Assembly: GCA_035299525.1 (NCBI GenBank)
Contig: DATGWK010000081.1
Span: 1 to 33,007, forward strand
Reading direction: 5' to 3'
Length of the DNA stretch: 33,007 nucleotides
Source: Candidatus Nanoarchaeia archaeon
GTDB taxonomy: Bacteria > Patescibacteriota > Minisyncoccia > Phycocordibacterales > DATGWK01
The translations under genes were made by a program, and so were the position numbers. This document shows, piece after piece, positions 8,174 to 15,147 of the stretch. The stretch's first letter is position 1. Every line of letters begins with the position of its first letter. Below the pieces are notes generated by a model, which was given only the letters and a program-made list of their open reading frames with translations, was not told the DNA's origin and searched no databases.

Positions 8174-10108
8174 CTAGTCTCTTACTCGTTCATCTCCTGT
8201 TCGATACTCAGAATCCTGATTGAAGCGAGTACTGAGGGGTGAAACGCCAGCCCTAACCTCACTTGCGGTAAACCGGTCGCTTCCAACAACAGTTGCTGAA
8301 CCAATAAGATCTGGTGAGGTATTAGCTTGGCTTATTGTTGGCAAAAATGCAATCTGGAACGCAACATGCTTTGCCGCGGAGGTATATCCTACTCCCGCAC
8401 GGAGATCTGGAATCGTCCAAGTAACCACTCGGCTCGAACTGTCATATGTAAGCTGTTCACTGCCTGGAGTAAAGTTTCCTGTCCAACGTACATATGGAGG
8501 TAATTCGGCTTTCATGGTTGCATTTGCAACGTCATTGAATGAGTTGGCGAGATACCAGTTAACGGTGTATGTTGTTTCGCTATCAACCGTTGGTGGAATC
8601 GGACCACGATCAGTGATGGCGCCTTCAGAACGCAAAATCTTTGCTTCGGGCACAAGGTTGGTTTCAACTTTTGCGAGACCGTTTGCAGATGAGCTAATTT
8701 GCTGTGGTACACCTCCCTGTACTCGAGTACCCCGAACAGTTGCCTGCATAGAAATATCCATGTTTCGCCCGGTTCTAAGAAGTTGGTCAGTGCTTGGTAC
8801 AACTCCGACAGTGAAACTAACTGAACCGGTGTCACCGGGTTTCAAACTCTCAAGTTCTGACAATGCACCCTTGTCCCACACAATAGTATTGTCTGACGAA
8901 CGGAAGAAACCACCTCCCCCAGCAGAAACTTGATTGCGGTCCAACCCCTTTCCAACAAGTCTTACTTCAATTTCGGCATCATTAACCTCAATTGGTAGAT
9001 TGTTTGTCCAGTTAAGTGTGCCCGTGAATCGGTCACCTGTGTTTACTGGCTGTGGACCGGTTTTTCCATCAACTTGGAATGAGAGGCCGATAAACGGTTT
9101 CTTGATTGCGAGCGTTTGCTGACTTGTAATATATCCAATCGCAATCTTTCTTTCGTCGGCAGGATTAATGGTTCCGGCGATAAATCGGAATGTTCTTTCT
9201 TCTTCATTTTGACCGTCCATACGTCCTTTGATTTGAATCGTTCGCTTTTCGTTAGCATTAAGATCACCGATCTTCCACACATTCTTCTCAACCGATGCAG
9301 CGGGCGTTGCACTCAAAAAAGTAAAACCGAATGGATACTCTGCCTGGACAGCAAGATCACGAATAAGAGCGGTTGCATTTGATGCAACATCGATGGAAAT
9401 TGTGATTTCTTGGCCAGAGTTCACCTCTTGTGGCAGATTAACGGCCATAAGAAGTGGTGCGGATTTGATAGTGATGTCAAACGTCTTTTCCTTTGAGAAA
9501 AAGGCGTCCGAACCAAACGGCTTATAATCGACTCGGGTCTTAATTTCCTTTACGCTGTCTTTTTCACCAAAGAAAACAGCTTTAATCGTTTGGGTTGCTG
9601 AGCCGCCAGACTTGATCTGGCCAAGGTCTATTTGCTGTCTCGATATGTCTTTTGTTAAATCATTTGCATCACGGGTTCCTTCAGGATATTCAATATAAAG
9701 AGTTGCCGCATCGAGATTTGAACTATTGCTGTTCTTAACAACAACATCGAGTGACAGTTCTTCTCCTGCGGCTACCGCAACAAGACCCTGAACTGTAATG
9801 TCGACATTCTTTGTTGAAATAATATTAAAGCCACCAAGAATTACATATGCAGCAATAGCTGTTGCCGCCAAAAAGAAAATAACAGCAGCAATAAAGAAAT
9901 TATTTACAAAAGAATTCTTTCGAGTCATTTGTTCTGGCGTTTCCACAAACGGTGTAAGCTCATCTGTCCAACCATAGCTATTTCCCTTCTCGTGCGGCGT
10001 AAGTTCAGGTCGCTTTTTTTCGGTAATTGGGGGTGCGTCGCGAGAGTAGAGATCGCGTTCTAGGTTATCAATTCGCTCATTCTTTTCCCCACCATTGGGA
10101 CTGTTCAT
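8174..10108 (-). CDS. hypothetical membrane-anchored extracellular protein (beta-rich repeated domains)
   Basis: A charged N-terminal tail, one TM helix (FFIAAVIFFLAATAIAAYVILGG), then about 550 aa of T/S/G/V-rich beta-type sequence resembling CARDB/DUF11-like domains. Confidence 0.65.
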   Translation of the reverse strand: MNSPNGGEKNERIDNLERDLYSRDAPPITEKKRPELTPHEKGNSYGWTDELTPFVETPEQMTRKNSFVNNFFIAAVIFFLAATAIAAYVILGGFNIISTKNVDITVQGLVAVAAGEELSLDVVVKNSNSSNLDAATLYIEYPEGTRDANDLTKDISRQQIDLGQIKSGGSATQTIKAVFFGEKDSVKEIKTRVDYKPFGSDAFFSKEKTFDITIKSAPLLMAVNLPQEVNSGQEITISIDVASNATALIRDLAVQAEYPFGFTFLSATPAASVEKNVWKIGDLNANEKRTIQIKGRMDGQNEEERTFRFIAGTINPADERKIAIGYITSQQTLAIKKPFIGLSFQVDGKTGPQPVNTGDRFTGTLNWTNNLPIEVNDAEIEVRLVGKGLDRNQVSAGGGGFFRSSDNTIVWDKGALSELESLKPGDTGSVSFTVGVVPSTDQLLRTGRNMDISMQATVRGTRVQGGVPQQISSSANGLAKVETNLVPEAKILRSEGAITDRGPIPPTVDSETTYTVNWYLANSFNDVANATMKAELPPYVRWTGNFTPGSEQLTYDSSSRVVTWTIPDLRAGVGYTSAAKHVAFQIAFLPTISQANTSPDLIGSATVVGSDRFTASEVRAGVSPLSTRFNQDSEYRTGDERVRD

Positions 10109-10115
10109 TTAAAAA

Positions 10116-10124
10116 AGTATACCA
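10116..10124 (-). promoter_or_regulatory. extended -10 promoter element (TGgTATACT) 7 nt upstream of the 644-aa gene ATG
   Basis: The minus strand reads TGGTATACT-tttttaa-ATG, with no SD motif. Confidence 0.4.
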
Positions 10125-10135
10125 TGCGAGAAATA

Positions 10136-10163
10136 TTGATAAAAACCATTTTTAATTTATAAT
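10136..10163 (+). promoter_or_regulatory. near-consensus sigma70 promoter TTGATA-16-TATAAT (plus strand)
   Basis: TTGATA at 10136-10141 and TATAAT at 10158-10163, with a 16-nt spacer. It points away from the neighbouring minus-strand genes. Confidence 0.45.
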
Positions 10164-10169
10164 ATACGC

Positions 10170-10225
10170 ATTGACGAGGATAGACGCCAAGAAAGCAACC
10201 CAGGTTGGGTTGCTTTCTTTATACA
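10170..10225 (+). ncRNA. candidate short sRNA: 17-nt single-stranded 5' seed plus 12-bp hairpin with U-rich tail
   Basis: The predicted start is about 7 nt after the -10. The seed TGACGAGGATAGACGCC is at 10172-10188. The hairpin GAAAGCAACCCA/TGGGTTGCTTTC (10191-10217) is followed by TTTATACATTCTTT. Confidence 0.35.
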
Positions 10226-10294
10226 TTCTTTAGAAATTTTTGAGTCGATCTCTTATATTCTCTTAACGTGACAGGATTTGACCAATCTTGTCGT

Positions 10295-10364
10295 GGGTCC
10301 ACTAGTGGCCTAGGTGTCTATCCTCGTCAGCTAGGCAACACGGGTTCGATTCCCGTTGGATCCA
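10295..10364 (+). ncRNA. tRNA-like element, non-canonical cloverleaf (G3-U70 acceptor, canonical T-arm, degenerate D/anticodon arms)
   Basis: The acceptor stem GGGTCCA/TGGATCC has a G-U at position 3:70. The T-arm is ACGGG-TTCGATT-CCCGT. The D-arm is reduced to CTAG-TGGC-CTAG. A 7-bp anticodon-like stem with one mismatch closes the loop CTCGTCA. The variable loop is 3 nt and no CCA is encoded. Confidence 0.45.
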
Positions 10365-10367
10365 GTA

Positions 10368-10967
10368 CTAAAGCCCAGTGGCCTGAAGTGAATCATTTAT
10401 GACCCGTACTGCCTCCTTACGAACTGGAGCAAGGCTCATAACTAGCTCCACATCCCAATCGATACTCATATAGAACGGCTTTAATGTCTCCGTTTCTGGA
10501 ATATACCCAAGAATATGTAAAATTCTAAGAATTAAAATCGCTTCGAAGTTTCTGATTTGATCTGGAATATCAGTTGAAATACCAGTATCAAGAAAATCTA
10601 AACCATCATTTACAATCTGAAACAATTCCTGATTTGGATCTTCGCCAGCAAGAAGCTTTTTGATGAGATACAGCGTTTGCGCACAGAGTTTCTGCTTCTC
10701 GGGATCATTTCGGAATGTTGCGAAGTAGCTTTTTTCTGGAACAGCGCTAATGAGTCGCCACTTATTCTTTCCTCGAACAAGAGAGACCGTCGACCGGGCT
10801 GGTGCATCGATTGCATATCTAATTTTCGACTTCATACTTCGAGTACCCTGGGCATGCGCCCCGACAAGCCCAAGATCTCGGGTGAATACATAGACAAAAT
10901 CACTCGTCTCACCCGCAGCAATCTTGTCGAGGATGAGACCTGTTGTGTTGTAGACGTGATGAGACAT
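10368..10967 (-). CDS. recO: DNA repair protein RecO (short form)
   Basis: N-terminal OB-fold pattern typical of RecO (GLILDKIAAGETSDFVYVFTRDLGLVGAHAQGTRSMKSK...LVRGKNKWRL). Confidence 0.75.
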   Translation of the reverse strand: MSHHVYNTTGLILDKIAAGETSDFVYVFTRDLGLVGAHAQGTRSMKSKIRYAIDAPARSTVSLVRGKNKWRLISAVPEKSYFATFRNDPEKQKLCAQTLYLIKKLLAGEDPNQELFQIVNDGLDFLDTGISTDIPDQIRNFEAILILRILHILGYIPETETLKPFYMSIDWDVELVMSLAPVRKEAVRVINDSLQATGL

Positions 10968-11572
10968 TACAAGTTAAGAATCTTCAGAACTCTTTCTCCA
11001 TCATTTTCTGACTTTGTAACCTCAACAGTTTGGAATCCAAATTTCTTTGCTTCAGATTCTAACCACGAGTTAAACAGTGCGGCCCATTTAACCTCTTTTT
11101 CTTTTACATCATCTGAATAGGTATGCGCATCATCCCAGAGCCCTCGAGAAAAAATCACCTTTCTTATTCGGTCTACGTCGTGATCCACAAGAAAGATAGG
11201 GCGAACATATTCAACAGCAGGAAAATCTCGAGCAACCAAATGAGGTAAAACGGCCACGCCCTCAACAACAATAGATTCGCCCCCTTCTTCAGACCGATCT
11301 ACTATCTTTTTTATTTCAGTCCACACAACCTCCCCTTCCTCTCTTTCAATGTCTACAATCTCCTGTGGTGAAAATTTATTAAGAAATTCTTCTGCAGAAT
11401 ACTGAACCGCCTTGAATAATGCAGGATTTTTTTCTGAATCTGTTTTCTCTCTCATTTGCTCTCGAACATCATCAGTTGAGATGCACGGCACGCCCAACTT
11501 CTTAGAAAGAAGTTTTGCTATCGTTGATTTTCCAGTTGTTGGAGCGCCGCCAATAAGAATGACCCTCTTCAT
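10967..11572 (-). CDS. P-loop kinase, 2-phosphoglycerate-kinase-like
   Basis: ILIGGAPTTGKSTIAKLLSKKLGVPCISTDDVREQMR matches the 2PGK-type Walker A plus the STD..RE motif. It is translationally coupled to ileS and recO through overlapping stop/start codons. Confidence 0.65.
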   Translation of the reverse strand: MKRVILIGGAPTTGKSTIAKLLSKKLGVPCISTDDVREQMREKTDSEKNPALFKAVQYSAEEFLNKFSPQEIVDIEREEGEVVWTEIKKIVDRSEEGGESIVVEGVAVLPHLVARDFPAVEYVRPIFLVDHDVDRIRKVIFSRGLWDDAHTYSDDVKEKEVKWAALFNSWLESEAKKFGFQTVEVTKSENDGERVLKILNL

Positions 11573-14500
11573 TAGTTTAATGCAACCTTGAATGTAAGAC
11601 TCTCAACTTTTACTTCTTCCCAGTCCCGCAAAGCTTCGCCAGAAGCGGAGTGTGGACCTTCTGCCTCACCAAATGAAACACGTGAGATATGTGCGACTTT
11701 CTTGAGCTGGTCTTCATATTTCCTTACGAATGATTCGCCATCGCTATTGGTAGAAAGTGTAAGCGTTGCCAATTCACCAGGTTTAAGGGCGGTTTTCTTT
11801 CGCATGTCCTGAATAAATCGTGAAAGTTCTCGGAAGTTACCCTCTTCTCTAAGAGCGTCAGTAATATCGGTGTCGAGTACAACTTCCCCAACAATTTCTG
11901 AATCAAACAAAACCTCTTTTACGTTAACTTCATCGAGGATAAGTTCGATACATTCTTTTTTATTCTGTAGTGATGAAGATTTTACAAAAAGTTTAGAAAG
12001 TGGCTGACGAACCTTAATTCCCGCTTTTGCTCGGGCCTCAAGTGCGAGACTTACCACTCGTCGTGTTTCTACCATATCAGAGAGAAGCATCACATTATCA
12101 ACTGACGTTACAAGTGTTACCGGCCATTCATCGAGATGCACACTTTCCTTTTTACCACCAACGGTCTTGTATACCTCCTCTGCAACGAACGGTGTAAACG
12201 GTGCCATAAGTTTTGAAGTTTCAAGAAGAATCATTCGGAATGTTGAAAGCGCTTCCTTTCGTTCTGTTTCATCTTCACTCTTGAGTCGTTCTCGAGATCG
12301 TCGAAGATACCAAACAGAAACATCTTCAATAAACCCATCAATTGAGTTGAGAGCCTTGTTGAGTTCGTACGCCTCCATTGAAGTTGTTACTTCCGCAATC
12401 ACCACATTGAGCCGCTCAATGATCCATCGATCAAGAATATTTTTTGATTCGACTGTTGCTACTTCTCCCTCCTCTTTCTTGTAGGTTTCGTAGAAAGAAA
12501 CAACGTTCTTCAATCGCAAGATAATTTTCTTGTGAACTTCATCAACCCCCTTCTCTGAAAAATTAAGATCTTCTGATTTTAAAAGCGGTGAAGACATGAG
12601 GTAAAAACGAAGTGCATCGACTCCAAATTTATCGAAAATGAGTGCAGGGTCTGGGAAGTTACCCTTTGACTTTGACATCTTCGCCCCATCTTCAGCGAGC
12701 ACGGTACCTGTGGTTAAGACGTTCTTGAACGGTACCTTACCGAAGAGCATGACTGAAACCGCATGCATGTAGTAAAACCATGTTCGAGTCTGAGCGATAT
12801 ATTCAGAAACAAAATCTGCTGGATAATTCGCCTCGAATTTCTTCTTGTTCTCAAACGGGTAATGATTCTGTGCAAATGGCATTGCACCAGATTCAAACCA
12901 ACCGTCGATAACCTCACTTACACGCTTAACATGACCACCACATTTGCAAACATACGTAATTTCATCGATATATGGTCGATGAAAATCAAGCTCATAATCT
13001 TTGTCATGAGGAATTGGAGTGAATGCAAGGTCTCGCCACTCTCCAGTAGTCAGCTTCGTTTTTGAAATAAATTCCCTAATGAGATCCTTTCTATTGATAC
13101 CCCTTGAACCCGCTTCCAGGAAGAACGCAACGTCACCGTGAGTCACGATCAAGATTTTCTTTCCGTAATGCTTCCTTTCTAGGCCATACAGGAACTTCAT
13201 TGACCGTCGATGCACATCCATGAGCGTTTCCCCACCTTCTGACGCAGTATCAAAGCGCGACTCGGGTGAGTCAAAAGACGCGCGGTATTCTGTCCACGTT
13301 CTACCATTAAAAATTCCAGCGTTAAGTTCTGTGATTTCTGTTGATGTAAAAATGTTTTCTGACGAAACACCTATTTCCCTCGCCACGAGTTGTGCAGTTT
13401 CTTTTGCACGTTCAAGATCAGATGAATAAATAATGTCGATCTTCTCTTTCTTGAGTTTATGGGCGGATGCAAGAACCTGAGCCTTACCCACTTCAGTAAG
13501 TGTGTTCTTTGGATCTGGTTTGCAACTTACGGTGTCGTTAAGATTGTGCTGAGATTCACCATGTCGCATTACGACATACTTGTTGACTGCAGGAACTCGA
13601 TCTGTGATTTCTTTGAGTGAACCGAAACATTCCGTCTTCTCACATTTTTCACAGCGCCAAAATGGCAACGGTGATGCCCAGTATCGATTACGAGAAATGT
13701 TCCAGTCTGGCGCAGCTTCAACGCTGTTACCAAAACGACCATGTTTCAAATGCTCAGGAATCCAGTTGATGTCTTCGTTGAGTTTGAGAATTTCTTTCTT
13801 TACCGCCTGAATCTTGATAAACCACGATGGCAATGCGAAATACAAAAGCGGAGTTTCGCAGCGATGACAGTGCGGATATGAATGAACGATTTTTTCTTTA
13901 CCAAAAAGGAGTCCGCGGGCAGCAAGATTTTTTACGATCAGCACGTCAGACGATTGATGATCTTCTTTTGGCTTTGCCTTGAGACCAGCAAAATCAGTAA
14001 CATCAGCAATAAACTTTCCGTCTTGGCCAACGTGTCGAACAAACGGAATCTCATTCTTCTTTGCGAGATCCATGTCCTCTTCCCCATATGCCGGAGCGAG
14101 GTGCACGATACCCGAACCAGTATCTGCAGTTACATACGGAGCAGCGTAGACCTTCCAAGCATTTTCCCAGCCCCGCGAAGCTTCGTTAGAAACGAAGTGG
14201 GGCCCAGTTAAGTTTTTGTTCAAGAAATAATCAAACGGTGGTTTGTATTTCTTCCCTACCAAATCCTTACCTTTGATTTCCTCTACGATTTCAAATTCTT
14301 CTTTAAACAGAGATGTTTTATTTTTTCCAACAATAAAATACTCGTCTTTTACCTTTGCAATAACGTAATCGAGTTCTTCATTCACTGCAACGCCGGTGTT
14401 ACCAGGAAGCGTCCAAGGAGTTGTTGTCCAAACGATTAGGTAATGATTCGGCTCATTTTCGATAGCGAGTTTTACATACACAGAAATGTCAGAAATATCT

Positions 14501-15147
14501 TTGTATGAATTATCCATCGCGACTTCAGCATTTGAGATCGGAGTTTCGCAGCGCGGACAATACAAAAGAACCTTTGTTCCTTCGTAAATAAGTTTCTTAT
14601 CCCACATTTCCTTCATCGCCCACCATACGGACTCAATGAAGGTGTTATCCATGGTCATATACGCACCGTCATAATCTACCCAACGGCCAATTCGTTCGAT
14701 GGTGTGTTTCCACTCATGAGCATACTGCAGCACCTTGCTTCGTGCGTATTCGTTAAATGTATCGACACCAATTGCTTCGATCTCTTTCTTTCCGTTTACC
14801 TTGAGATCTTTTTCAACGATGTTTTCGATTGGTAAGCCGTGACAGTCCCAACCCCAACGTCGTTCAACATGATGTCCACGCATCGTTTGATAACGTGGTA
14901 CGGCATCTTTGATCGTACTGATTAAAATATGACCATAGTGCGGCAAGCCTGTCGCAAATGGTGGACCGTCGTAGAAAACGTAATTCCCAGCAGGAGACTC
15001 TTTCTTGAGACTTTTTTCAAATATATTATTGTCACGCCAGAATTTCAGTACTTTCTCTTCAGCCTGTGCGGTCGCGGACTTTCCCTGCCTCGCCGTAGCT
15101 TCAGCGGAGGTATGTTTGTTTTTATTTTCTTTATGGATATCAGCCAT
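11572..15147 (-). CDS. ileS: isoleucyl-tRNA synthetase (type 2) with an inserted histidine-phosphatase domain
   Basis: HYGH and KMSKS motifs, a CP1 editing domain (WTTTPWTLPGN), and the NISRNRYW and DFHRPYID...WFESG motifs. At 1191 aa it is unusually long because of an insertion of about 200 aa. Confidence 0.95.
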   Translation of the reverse strand: MADIHKENKNKHTSAEATARQGKSATAQAEEKVLKFWRDNNIFEKSLKKESPAGNYVFYDGPPFATGLPHYGHILISTIKDAVPRYQTMRGHHVERRWGWDCHGLPIENIVEKDLKVNGKKEIEAIGVDTFNEYARSKVLQYAHEWKHTIERIGRWVDYDGAYMTMDNTFIESVWWAMKEMWDKKLIYEGTKVLLYCPRCETPISNAEVAMDNSYKDISDISVYVKLAIENEPNHYLIVWTTTPWTLPGNTGVAVNEELDYVIAKVKDEYFIVGKNKTSLFKEEFEIVEEIKGKDLVGKKYKPPFDYFLNKNLTGPHFVSNEASRGWENAWKVYAAPYVTADTGSGIVHLAPAYGEEDMDLAKKNEIPFVRHVGQDGKFIADVTDFAGLKAKPKEDHQSSDVLIVKNLAARGLLFGKEKIVHSYPHCHRCETPLLYFALPSWFIKIQAVKKEILKLNEDINWIPEHLKHGRFGNSVEAAPDWNISRNRYWASPLPFWRCEKCEKTECFGSLKEITDRVPAVNKYVVMRHGESQHNLNDTVSCKPDPKNTLTEVGKAQVLASAHKLKKEKIDIIYSSDLERAKETAQLVAREIGVSSENIFTSTEITELNAGIFNGRTWTEYRASFDSPESRFDTASEGGETLMDVHRRSMKFLYGLERKHYGKKILIVTHGDVAFFLEAGSRGINRKDLIREFISKTKLTTGEWRDLAFTPIPHDKDYELDFHRPYIDEITYVCKCGGHVKRVSEVIDGWFESGAMPFAQNHYPFENKKKFEANYPADFVSEYIAQTRTWFYYMHAVSVMLFGKVPFKNVLTTGTVLAEDGAKMSKSKGNFPDPALIFDKFGVDALRFYLMSSPLLKSEDLNFSEKGVDEVHKKIILRLKNVVSFYETYKKEEGEVATVESKNILDRWIIERLNVVIAEVTTSMEAYELNKALNSIDGFIEDVSVWYLRRSRERLKSEDETERKEALSTFRMILLETSKLMAPFTPFVAEEVYKTVGGKKESVHLDEWPVTLVTSVDNVMLLSDMVETRRVVSLALEARAKAGIKVRQPLSKLFVKSSSLQNKKECIELILDEVNVKEVLFDSEIVGEVVLDTDITDALREEGNFRELSRFIQDMRKKTALKPGELATLTLSTNSDGESFVRKYEDQLKKVAHISRVSFGEAEGPHSASGEALRDWEEVKVESLTFKVALN

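What the first reader, a model, noticed from the sequence alone, without database searches (positions are those of the whole stretch)
10136..10364. Plus-strand mini-locus: a promoter-driven seed-plus-hairpin RNA complementary to the anticodon arm of a neighbouring non-canonical, G3-U70 tRNA-like element
In a 259-nt gap between two minus-strand genes there is a near-consensus plus-strand promoter (TTGATA-16-TATAAT). It is followed by a 17-nt single-stranded segment, TGACGAGGATAGACGCC (10172-10188), then a 12-bp hairpin with a U-rich tail (10191-10225). About 125 nt downstream lies a 70-nt tRNA-like cloverleaf (10295-10364). It has a perfect T-arm (ACGGG-TTCGATT-CCCGT) and an acceptor stem whose third pair is G-U, the alanine identity element also used by tmRNA. 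Its D-arm is vestigial (4-bp stem, 4-nt loop, no G18G19). There are no residues 8-9 between the acceptor and the D stem. The anticodon stem is elongated, the variable loop is 3 nt, and position 37 of loop CTCGTCA is a pyrimidine. The 17-nt upstream segment is complementary to 10313-10329 (16 Watson-Crick pairs plus one G-U). That target is the 5' strand of the anticodon-like stem plus its whole loop. A match of this length in a 260-nt region is very unlikely by chance. Three readings are possible. First, a precursor whose 5' part masks the tRNA-like fold until it is processed. Second, a cis-encoded sRNA and its tRNA-like target. Third, an atypical or decaying tRNA flanked by an inverted repeat at the DNA level.
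Basis: partly seen in the sequence, partly recalled or inferred. Interest (0 to 1): 0.62.

Follow-up and report, generated by a model that had tools for sequence, protein, structure and literature searches.

The report
Alanine tRNA mimic with antisense RNA
This gap between two genes of an ultra-small (CPR-type) bacterium holds a two-gene, RNA-only cassette, a shrunken alanine-type tRNA look-alike and a tiny RNA built to pair with its anticodon arm; the pair co-evolves in scattered relatives across the phylum, and I found no description of it in Rfam or the searchable literature.

Summary
The 17-nt segment 10172-10188 pairs with 10313-10329. A near-consensus promoter precedes it, a 14-bp hairpin follows it, and a 70-nt cloverleaf with G3:U70 lies at 10295-10364. 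ARAGORN and Rfam at its curated (gathering) thresholds call nothing there. The best sub-threshold Rfam match is the tRNA-like domain of tmRNA.

It is not a decaying tRNA. Models built from the element found about 40 copies in related genomes across the phylum and 42 more on metagenome contigs. The cloverleaf covaries: 94.6% of cells pair and 14 of 24 pairs change on both sides. G1-G2-G3...U70-C71-C72-A73 is almost invariant.

In 55 of 82 copies a complementary partner covering the anticodon-like loop lies within 450 nt on the same strand. It is upstream in 26 and downstream in 29. Nearly all partners have their own promoter ending just before the seed and a terminator just after it. The partner is therefore an independent sRNA of about 50 nt, not a leader.

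Cognate pairs are far more stable than non-cognate ones. The cassette is patchy (18 of 401 genomes of the order), sometimes multi-copy, and has no conserved protein neighbour.

My best reading is a dedicated antisense RNA that unfolds the anticodon arm of an alanine-accepting tRNA mimic, in the manner of hok/sok. It may be an RNA-only addiction or defence module. The function is not shown.

The parts
10136..10163 (+). Promoter of the sRNA (module B): TTGATA, 16 nt, TATAAT. The predicted start is near 10170.
   Evidence: It matches 11 of 12 consensus positions. The same kind of promoter, with its -10 ending 1-8 nt before the seed, is present in 49 of 55 cassettes.
10172..10188 (+). 5'-terminal seed of the sRNA, complementary to 10313-10329. 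That target is the last D-stem base, the junction, the 5' strand of the anticodon-like stem and the whole loop.
   Evidence: The pairing is 16 Watson-Crick pairs plus 1 G-U. RNAduplex gives -33.7 kcal/mol, against -8 to -20 for sRNAs of other genomes. No other site in the 578-kb assembly has fewer than 4 mismatches.
10189..10227 (+). Terminator hairpin of the sRNA: 14-bp stem 10189-10202 with 10206-10219, loop GGT, T-rich tail. The predicted sRNA is about 55 nt (about 10170-10227).
   Evidence: Folds. A hairpin with a T tail directly follows the seed in 52 of 55 cassettes.
10231..10259 (+). Candidate weak promoter of the tRNA-like gene: TAGAAA, 17 nt, TATATT.
   Evidence: It matches 9 of 12 consensus positions. 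An equivalent AAGAAA-17-TAnnnT sits at the same place in G004, G006, G008c and G001. This part is inferred and not tested.
10270..10292 (+). Leader hairpin GACAGGAT-TTGACCA-ATCTTGTC, ending 2 nt before G1. Loop TTGAC (10278-10282) is complementary to GTCAG of the anticodon-like loop.
   Evidence: The fold of the predicted precursor shows it. All 13 order members in A6 and most of the 12 further ones in A7 have such a hairpin. The complement of positions 35-38 sits at -16 or -17 in 19 of the 27 order members scored, and it covaries: TGGT/ACCA, TGAC/GTCA, TGAT/ATCA, TGGTGA/TCACCA.
10295..10364 (+). tRNA-like RNA (module A), 70 nt up to A73.
- Acceptor stem: 10295-10301 with 10357-10363 (G3:U70)
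- D arm: 10302-10313
- Anticodon-like stem: 10315-10322 with 10330-10337
- Loop CTCGTCA: 10323-10329
- T arm: 10340-10356
- A73: 10364
- CCA is not encoded
   Evidence: Model R1 scores it 108.6 bits and R2 79.5 bits. Covariation across 11 members supports the fold. The sub-threshold tmRNA match is 23.8 bits, E 7e-8. ARAGORN calls nothing.

Best explanation
The gap holds an autonomous, RNA-only, two-gene cassette.

Gene A encodes a compact tRNA mimic. It has a normal acceptor stem, T arm and elbow. It carries the full alanine identity set (G1:C72, G2:C71, G3:U70, A73). Its lower half is remodelled: no 8-9 linker, a 4-nt D loop, an 8-bp anticodon-like stem, and a 7-nt U-turn loop N-U-Y-R-N-C-A.

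Gene B encodes an sRNA of about 55 nt made from a strong promoter. Its first 14-20 nt are complementary to A's loop and the 5' strand of its anticodon-like stem. A terminator hairpin follows directly.

Inferred mechanism:
1. A matures like a tRNA, through RNase P and 3' trimming with CCA addition, and is charged by AlaRS.
2. B's single-stranded 5' tail nucleates on A's U-turn loop, as Sok does on hok mRNA.
3. B invades the stem and forms a 17-bp duplex. This unfolds the D and anticodon half of A and leaves only the acceptor/T minihelix.
4. B thereby neutralises whatever the anticodon arm does, and may mark A for a double-strand RNase.
5. In this order a leader hairpin in pre-A offers a second, weaker partner for the same loop bases.

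The strong-promoter sRNA beside a weak-promoter, stable, tRNA-shaped RNA suggests a selfish addiction or abortive-infection-type module rather than a housekeeping RNA. So do the patchy, multi-copy, context-free distribution and the copy-specific pairing.

Shown here: the structures, the covariation, the gene boundaries and the distribution. Inferred: processing, charging, duplex formation in vivo and the biological role.
For: **Structure**
- On 11 members, 94.6% of cells pair, against 78.6% in shuffles (0 of 500) and 36-50% when the partners are slid.
- 14 of 24 pairs change on both sides, and G3:U70 is present in 11 of 11.
- ARAGORN calls none of the copies, and Rfam has no family for them.

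**Family size**
- Model searches found copies in 18 of 401 genomes of the order and in other classes of the phylum.
- 44 metagenome contigs match an exact pattern.

**The sRNA is a separate gene**
- 55 of 82 copies have a same-strand partner covering the loop.
- The partner is upstream in 26 (gap 95-147 nt) and downstream in 29 (gap 33-82 nt).
- 49 of 55 have a sigma-70-like promoter ending 1-8 nt before the seed, and 52 of 55 have a hairpin with a T tail after it.
- A reversed-target control scores 9.4 on average, against 14.2 observed.

**Co-evolution and specificity**
- Cognate duplexes average -28.4 kcal/mol and non-cognate ones -16.1.
- In G000 the sRNA has no other good site in the assembly.
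- Its best duplex with an ordinary tRNA is -17.7 kcal/mol, against -33.7 with A.
- The B-A dimer is favoured by -17.4 kcal/mol over the two monomers.

**The loop behaves as a recognition loop**
- There are 10 distinct 34-36 triplets. All have Y34 and R35, none has G34, and none is an alanine anticodon.
- C37-A38 is present in 38 of 40 copies (after correcting by eye two loops the script mis-registered).
- This fits the YUNR U-turn motif and the 5'-tail-to-loop pairing described for antisense systems (PMC4485353).

**tRNA-like maturation**
- CCA is encoded in 10 of 13 copies in classes whose members carry it.
- It is absent here, where 28 of 35 ordinary tRNAs also lack it.

**Alanine identity**
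- The acceptor stem resembles the genome's own tRNA-Ala (GGGCC.../...GGUCC-A).
- AlaRS reads G3:U70 and ignores the anticodon (PMC10543346).

**Accessory nature**
- The cassette is present in 4 of 8 genomes of the genus, at different sites.
- The recO gap is empty in four of those genomes.
- No protein family recurs in the flanks.
Against: - There are no expression data.
- About a third of the copies show no partner at my threshold. Some of these sit at contig ends, but G008a, G008b and G015 look like true orphans. That is awkward if free A is strongly toxic.
- The terminator scan did not call the G000 hairpin.
- C37, frequent mismatches at the loop-closing pair, and a stem 3 bp longer than normal make efficient decoding doubtful, so the supposed activity of free A is unclear.
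- The leader hairpin is too short to reach the anticodon loop of an L-shaped tRNA in cis, so its role is not explained.
- G004 pairs only weakly (10 bp with 2 G-U, -15.9 kcal/mol).
- The family model also scores ordinary tRNAs at 40-50 bits, so membership calls below about 55 bits are uncertain.
Confidence: 0.6

Rival explanations
1. A is a genuine, if odd, decoding tRNA. It would be an alanine-accepting mis-sense or recoding tRNA reading the codon matched by positions 34-36 (ACG here, GUA in most relatives). B would be a physiological regulator that titrates it.
For: - U33 and a 7-nt loop whose middle three bases vary while the flanks stay constant.
- A normal T arm, the GG in the D loop, and CCA handling like that of the host's tRNAs.
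- AlaRS ignores the anticodon, and tRNA-Ala anticodon variants mistranslate in yeast (PMC10543346).
Against: - C37 is nearly invariant, whereas decoding tRNAs carry a purine there (my knowledge).
- Y34-R35 holds in all 10 distinct triplets, and G34 never occurs.
- The stem is 8 bp with internal mismatches.
- Only about 5% of genomes of the order carry the cassette.
- The genome already has normal tRNA-Thr(CGU) and tRNA-Val(UAC).
Confidence: 0.15
2. A single precursor RNA, as in the first reader's reading 1. Transcription from 10136-10163 would read through the hairpin, and the 5' segment would mask the tRNA-like fold in cis until processing. B would then be a leader or attenuator, not a separate sRNA.
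For: - In G000 and its genus B lies upstream on the same strand.
- The 200-nt transcript folds with the 17-bp long-range helix (-82.8 kcal/mol, z -7.6).
- The candidate promoter of A is weak.
Against: - In 29 of 55 cassettes B lies downstream of A with its own promoter.
- A strong hairpin with a T tail follows the seed in 52 of 55.
- A promoter-like site is conserved in position between B's terminator and A in this genus.
Confidence: 0.1
3. A is an inert tRNA-shaped decoy or sponge, and B is the active molecule. Alternatively, A sequesters a protein such as AlaRS, EF-Tu, RNase P, the CCA-adding enzyme or an anticodon nuclease, and B tunes the free pool. In this reading no toxicity or selfishness is involved.
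For: - tRNA-derived spacers that sponge sRNAs are known in enterobacteria (my knowledge).
- A has every feature needed to bind tRNA-handling proteins.
- Orphan A copies exist.
Against: - B seeds differ in every genome and track A's stem, so B has no room for conserved mRNA targets.
- In G000 B has no other site in the assembly.
- A patchy distribution is unusual for a housekeeping regulator.
Confidence: 0.12
4. A decaying tRNA or tmRNA fragment that happens to be flanked by a DNA-level inverted repeat (a MITE-like or att-like scar), with no RNA function.
For: - The 204-nt block 10164-10367 is absent from the orthologous recO gap of G004 and G005.
- Possible scars remain there.
Against: - Compensatory changes occur in all four helices and in the intermolecular duplex.
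- G-U pairs are retained, which only makes sense on the plus-strand RNA.
- Oriented promoters and terminators are present.
- The element is conserved across classes of the phylum.
Confidence: 0.02

Closest known systems
tRNA-like domain of tmRNA (SsrA), Rfam RF00023
   Same: - G3:U70 with A73.
- A canonical T arm.
- A reduced D region.
- No decoding-type anticodon.
- It is the best Rfam match (23.8 bits, E 7e-8).
   Different: - There is no mRNA-like domain, no pseudoknots and no tag reading frame.
- The score is far below the gathering score of 47 bits.
- The genome has a normal tmRNA elsewhere (C107:501-882, 99 bits, with a tag peptide).
- tmRNA has no anticodon-like hairpin and no dedicated antisense RNA.
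Canonical bacterial tRNA-Ala
   Same: - The acceptor identity set G1:C72, G2:C71, G3:U70 and A73.
- The T loop TTCGATT.
- The GG in the D loop.
- The same CCA-encoding habit as the host's tRNAs.
   Different: - No residues 8-9.
- A 4-nt D loop.
- An 8-bp anticodon stem with a mismatch.
- A 2-nt variable region.
- C37, and non-alanine triplets.
- It is not called by ARAGORN.
- Its tRNA-model score is below the tmRNA score.
hok/sok-type (type I) toxin-antitoxin antisense control, and plasmid antisense systems that use YUNR U-turn loops
   Same: - A short sRNA from a strong promoter whose single-stranded 5' tail pairs with a U-turn hairpin loop of the target.
- Pairing specific to each copy.
- A patchy, multi-copy distribution.
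- The motif and the pairing scheme are described in PMC4485353.
   Different: - The target is not an mRNA. There is no conserved ORF, and the only frame over A (10268-10402) is not hydrophobic and is not conserved.
- The two genes do not overlap on opposite strands. They are trans-encoded neighbours on the same strand.
Type VIII toxin-antitoxin systems (RNA toxin with RNA antitoxin, such as SdsR/RyeA and CreTA), from my knowledge
   Same: Both partners would be RNAs, and the antitoxin would act through base pairing.
   Different: - No tRNA-shaped toxin is known in that class.
- CreA needs Cascade.
- Toxicity of A is not shown.
Compact or non-canonical tRNAs: tRNA-Pyl, D-arm-reduced mitochondrial tRNAs and allo-tRNAs (Mukai et al. 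2017, PMC5389517, cited from earlier notes and not read here)
   Same: - A short or absent 8-9 linker.
- A small D loop.
- A lengthened anticodon stem.
- A short variable region.
   Different: - Those tRNAs decode and have a purine at position 37.
- None has a cognate antisense sRNA in the literature I could search.

Membership tests
Canonical tRNA (Rfam RF00005 / ARAGORN) | Detected by tRNA gene finders or covariance models at their thresholds | tested here: not met
   ARAGORN finds 0 genes in the window and none at the homologues. No Rfam match reaches a gathering score. The tRNA clan match is no better than 23.8 bits.
Canonical tRNA (Rfam RF00005 / ARAGORN) | Standard core: residues 8-9, D loop of 7-11 nt, 5-bp anticodon stem, purine at position 37 | tested here: not met
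   There is no 8-9 linker, the D loop is 4-5 nt, the stem is 8 bp, and C37 is present in 38 of 40 copies.
tRNA-Ala identity (AlaRS substrate) | G3:U70 with A73 in a 7-bp acceptor helix stacked on a T arm | tested here: met
   G3:U70 is present in 39 of 40 model-derived copies. G1:C72, G2:C71 and A73 are invariant in A4. Actual charging cannot be tested with these tools.
tmRNA (RF00023) | An mRNA-like domain with a resume codon, tag ORF and pseudoknots between the two halves of the tRNA-like domain | tested here: not met
   The model aligns only the acceptor and T arm, and 286 model positions are replaced by 23 nt. The score is 23.8 bits against a gathering score of 47. A true tmRNA lies elsewhere in the genome.
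Type I toxin-antitoxin (hok/sok-like) | The target RNA encodes a small toxic, usually hydrophobic, peptide | tested here: not met
   The only frame over A is 10268-10402, 44 aa from a GTG start. By my own translation it is not hydrophobic, and homologues carry in-frame stops such as CTAACGGTTTAG.
Type I toxin-antitoxin (hok/sok-like) | A short antisense RNA with a single-stranded 5' tail that pairs with a YUNR loop of the target, plus strong antitoxin and weak toxin promoters | tested here: met
   The seed starts at the predicted +1 to +3 position. B's promoter matches 11 of 12 positions and A's candidate promoter 9 of 12. The loop is Y/N-U-Y-R. In vivo stability of the RNAs is not testable here.
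T-box riboswitch | A leader of an aminoacyl-tRNA-related gene with Stem I, a specifier codon, the T-box sequence and a terminator/antiterminator switch | tested here: not met
   No Rfam T-box match appears even at E up to 10. No protein-coding gene lies downstream on the plus strand. The only resemblance is a loop complementary to an anticodon-like loop.
Mobile element (MITE or insertion with terminal inverted repeats) | Terminal inverted repeats at both ends, a target-site duplication, and near-identical copies in the genome | tested here: not met
   The inverted repeat is internal, since its right arm lies inside A. There is no second copy in the 578-kb assembly. No duplication is seen at the 10164 and 10367 junctions.

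The most novel reading that the evidence does not exclude
The cassette would be a new class of RNA-only toxin-antitoxin or abortive-infection module in candidate-phyla-radiation bacteria.

The toxin would be an alanine-charged tRNA mimic. When unmasked, it would enter ribosomes and either insert alanine at codons matching its loop triplet or jam the A site. The antitoxin would be a labile antisense sRNA, specific to its own copy, that unfolds the mimic's anticodon arm.

Loss of the cassette, or transcription shut-off by a phage, would free the stable mimic and poison translation.
Probability: 0.3. Interest if true: 0.92.

Novelty: categorically new. Interest (0 to 1): 0.8.

Why it matters
If real in vivo, this is a widespread and apparently undescribed type of bacterial gene pair made only of RNA. 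One partner is a tRNA-shaped molecule built on the one aminoacylation identity that ignores the anticodon. The other is a private antisense RNA that co-evolves with it.

- It would add a new class to the catalogue of structured RNAs, since Rfam has no model for either partner.
- It offers a natural example of control of a tRNA mimic by strand invasion of the anticodon arm.
- It opens testable questions about mistranslation, ribosome targeting and addiction or defence in the poorly understood ultra-small bacteria.
- It shows that standard tRNA finders miss a conserved tRNA-like family.
- Its modular, orthogonal RNA-RNA pairs could be useful as synthetic regulators.

Tried and rejected
1. **Normal tRNA or tmRNA.** ARAGORN and Rfam at gathering thresholds found nothing. 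Only a sub-threshold match to the tRNA-like domain of tmRNA appeared.

2. **DNA homology.** A search of 60 relatives with the 259-nt gap found only generic T-arm hits.

3. **Synteny.** The recO-downstream gap in 8 same-genus or same-family genomes has no element. The recO link is therefore incidental.

4. **Exact-pattern scans.**
   - The acceptor-plus-T-arm pattern of G000 gave 0 hits in genome contigs and viral contigs.
   - My second genome contigs pattern had a wrong gap length (N{4,5} where 3 nt were needed), so that scan was wasted.
   - The corrected pattern gave 0 hits in viral contigs and 44 in metagenome contigs.

5. **Partners for orphan copies.** Searches for sRNA partners of G008a, G008b and G015 found matches only at the control rate.

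6. **Extended -10 promoter.** I considered that the conserved TGGTA before G1 is an extended -10 promoter with transcription starting at G1. I rejected this because the flanking stems covary and the motif changes together with the loop in G000, G101, G041 and G303b/c.

7. **Two-piece tmRNA.** B has no conserved reading frame after the seed.

8. **Conserved protein partner.** None was found in the flanks.

10. **Literature.** Six searches found no description of such a pair.
Full report
**1. What is in the window**

The 259-nt gap 10109-10367 lies between two minus-strand genes. One is a DUF11-domain protein (8174-10108). The other is a short RecO (10368-10967), which follows a kinase-like gene and IleRS.

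On the plus strand, in order, the gap holds:
- a near-consensus promoter, TTGATA-16-TATAAT, at 10136-10163 (11 of 12 positions);
- the 17-nt segment TGACGAGGATAGACGCC at 10172-10188;
- a 14-bp hairpin at 10189-10219 with a T-rich tail;
- a second, weaker promoter-like site, TAGAAA-17-TATATT, at 10231-10259;
- a hairpin at 10270-10292;
- a 70-nt cloverleaf at 10295-10364.

The 17-mer is complementary to 10313-10329 with 16 Watson-Crick pairs and one G-U. The longest distant antiparallel run in the gap is 18, against a maximum of 16 in 300 shuffles. An independent Logan assembly of run SRR5823597 has the identical sequence.

**2. It is not a normal tRNA or tmRNA**

ARAGORN finds nothing in the window, and Rfam finds nothing at gathering thresholds. 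At relaxed thresholds the best match is tmRNA (23.8 bits, gathering score 47). That match aligns only the acceptor stem and T arm, with the whole mRNA-like core deleted.

The genome is a 578-kb, 74%-complete draft of CPR type. It has a proper tmRNA with a tag peptide on another contig. It also has 36 ARAGORN tRNA calls, including tRNA-Ala(UGC), tRNA-Thr(CGU) and tRNA-Val(UAC).

**3. It is a member of a conserved family**

A single-sequence covariance model (R1) found 73-nt relatives in the same genus, family and order. They scored 35-61 bits, while the genome's own tRNAs did not reach E 1e-3. ARAGORN calls none of these relatives.

- 94.6% of cells pair, against 78.6% in shuffles (0 of 500) and 36-50% for slid controls.
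- 14 of 24 pairs change on both sides.
- G1:C72, G2:C71 and G3:U70 never vary.
- The GG of the 4-5-nt D loop is also conserved, so an elbow contact with the T loop is plausible.

A family model (R2) gave these results:
- It found copies in 18 of 401 genomes of the order, spread over 14 of 223 genera.
- Within the genus, 4 of 8 genomes carry it, at different sites.
- It found clear members in other classes of the phylum, where several genomes hold multiple strong hits of 70-73 nt.
- An exact pattern for the commonest loop type matched 44 metagenome contigs, many from groundwater ultra-small-cell fractions. It matched no IMG/VR viral contig.

**4. The partner is an independent sRNA gene that co-evolves with the tRNA-like gene**

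Reading the homologous loci showed the same architecture with entirely different sequences. For example:
- G153: seed UGGUAAGGUUUGAGAUC against GAUCUCAAACCUUACCA.
- G006: seed GUUGGUAAGACUGA against UCAGUCUUACCAAC.

In G303, G078 and G175 the promoter-seed-terminator unit lies downstream of the tRNA-like gene.

I then scored all 82 collected copies:
- 55 have a same-strand partner covering the loop within 450 nt.
- The partner is upstream in 26 (gap 95-147 nt) and downstream in 29 (gap 33-82 nt).
- 49 of 55 have a sigma-70-like promoter, commonly matching 10-11 of 12 positions, whose -10 ends 1-8 nt before the seed.
- 52 of 55 have a hairpin with a T tail directly after the seed.
- A reversed-target control averages 9.4, against 14.2 observed.

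Cognate duplexes average -28.4 kcal/mol and non-cognate ones -16.1. In G000 the seed has no other site with fewer than 4 mismatches in the assembly. Its best duplex with an ordinary tRNA is -17.7 kcal/mol, against -33.7 with the tRNA-like RNA. Cofolding favours the dimer by -17.4 kcal/mol. In the dimer the D and anticodon half is unfolded.

**5. The loop looks like an antisense recognition loop**

Among the 40 model-derived copies the loop follows N32-U33-Y34-R35-N36-C37-A38 (with two mis-registered loops corrected by eye):
- There are ten distinct 34-36 triplets: UAC, CAC, CAU, CGU, UGU, CGA, UGA, UAG, UAU and UAA.
- All have a pyrimidine at 34 and a purine at 35.
- None has G34, and none is an alanine anticodon.
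- C37-A38 is almost invariant.

This matches the YUNR U-turn motif. Recognition loops of antisense systems share that motif, and in some of those systems a single-stranded 5' tail pairs with a target loop (PMC4485353). It does not match what free choice of anticodons would give.

C37 also lets the sRNA's constant UG pair with the loop. The purine at position 37 of real tRNAs would not allow that.

**6. A second, cis partner in this order**

All 13 order members in A6, and most of the 12 further ones in A7, have a hairpin ending 3-4 nt before G1. Its stem covaries. Its loop carries the complement of positions 35-38 at -16 or -17 in 19 of the 27 members scored:
- TGGT with ACCA in most members;
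- TGAC with GUCA in G000;
- TGAU with AUCA in G303b and G303c;
- UGGUGA with UCACCA in G101;
- UGAUA with UGUCA in G041.

This rules out my alternative that TGGTA is merely an extended -10 box. The hairpin is absent in the other classes. It seems too short to reach the anticodon loop of an L-shaped molecule in cis. Its role is unexplained.

**7. Maturation and identity**

Most ordinary tRNAs of this genome (28 of 35) do not encode CCA, and neither does the element. In other classes, 10 of 13 copies encode CCA.

The acceptor stem resembles the genome's tRNA-Ala. AlaRS recognises G3:U70 and not the anticodon (PMC10543346). Charging with alanine is therefore a reasonable but untested inference.

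**8. Genomic behaviour**

- The cassette is patchy and sometimes tandem or multi-copy (G009, G008, G303).
- It has no recurring protein neighbour: at most 5 of 74 loci share a flanking protein family, and all of those are syntenic relatives.
- At the recO site, G004 and G005 lack the 204-nt block 10164-10367. G004 keeps a homologous TTGACT-16-TATAAT abutting the recO stop codon, and G005 keeps a seed-like remnant. This suggests loss there rather than a recent insertion here. I cannot decide between the two.

**9. Interpretation**

The gap holds an autonomous RNA-only cassette: an alanine-type tRNA mimic and a dedicated antisense sRNA.

The most likely mechanism is nucleation of the sRNA's 5' tail on the U-turn loop, followed by strand invasion that unfolds the anticodon arm. 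The following features resemble type I (hok/sok) logic, but the target encodes no peptide:
- asymmetric promoter strength;
- copy-specific pairing;
- a sporadic distribution.

What the free mimic does is open. The options are mis-decoding, ribosome or enzyme sequestration, or alanine donation. I put the RNA-only addiction or defence reading at about 0.3.

Earlier notes from this scan describe the same module in other CPR genomes, and a serine-type variant. I treated them as leads only. My own searches reproduced the family-level claims independently.

**10. Limits**

- One genome-contig scan was wasted on a mis-specified gap, so I have no organism names.
- About a third of the copies lack a detected partner.
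- R2 also scores ordinary tRNAs, so weak hits are ambiguous.

Noticed in passing
window 11572-15147 (-): The 1191-aa IleRS carries a histidine-phosphatase domain (PF00300, residues 525-704). It is inserted between the two parts of the class I catalytic core. This is an unusual domain insertion for a tRNA synthetase.
   Followed up: no
G000:C103:2878-2954 (same genome, another contig): ARAGORN calls a 77-nt 'tRNA-Phe' with anticodon AAA and an odd 5' end (TGGGGCTGT). It may be another non-canonical tRNA or a false call.
   Followed up: no
L028 about 1463-1490 (G004) and L027 about 1455-1485 (G005), the orthologous recO-DUF11 gaps: G004 keeps a perfect TTGACT-16-TATAAT abutting the recO stop codon. 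It matches the G000 sRNA promoter at 19 of 28 positions, but nothing lies behind it. G005 has TGACG-TAGACCC, which resembles the G000 seed. These may be scars of a lost cassette.
   Followed up: partly
L048 1501-1573 and 2962-3034 (G008:C1:211081-212614): Two nearly identical tRNA-like copies, with their leader hairpins, lie 1.46 kb apart. No complementary sRNA is found within 3 kb or clearly anywhere else in that genome.
   Followed up: partly
L101 509-591 (G001:C3:18458-18540): A family member with a 10-nt insertion in the T loop (GGGTTCCCCGTCTTCGCGGGCCC). Its sRNA partner is still present upstream.
   Followed up: no
window 10109-10135 (-): GTATACCATGCGAGAAATATTGA is conserved with G005 (90% over 31 nt). 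On the minus strand it reads as an extended -10 promoter (TGGTATACT) for the DUF11 gene. It lies back-to-back with, and partly overlaps, the sRNA's -35 box.
   Followed up: partly
L110 and L117 (G009:C3:28070-28414): Two complete cassettes in tandem, 272 nt apart, with different anticodon-like arms (loops CUUACCA and CCCACCA). Each has its own matching sRNA seed.
   Followed up: partly
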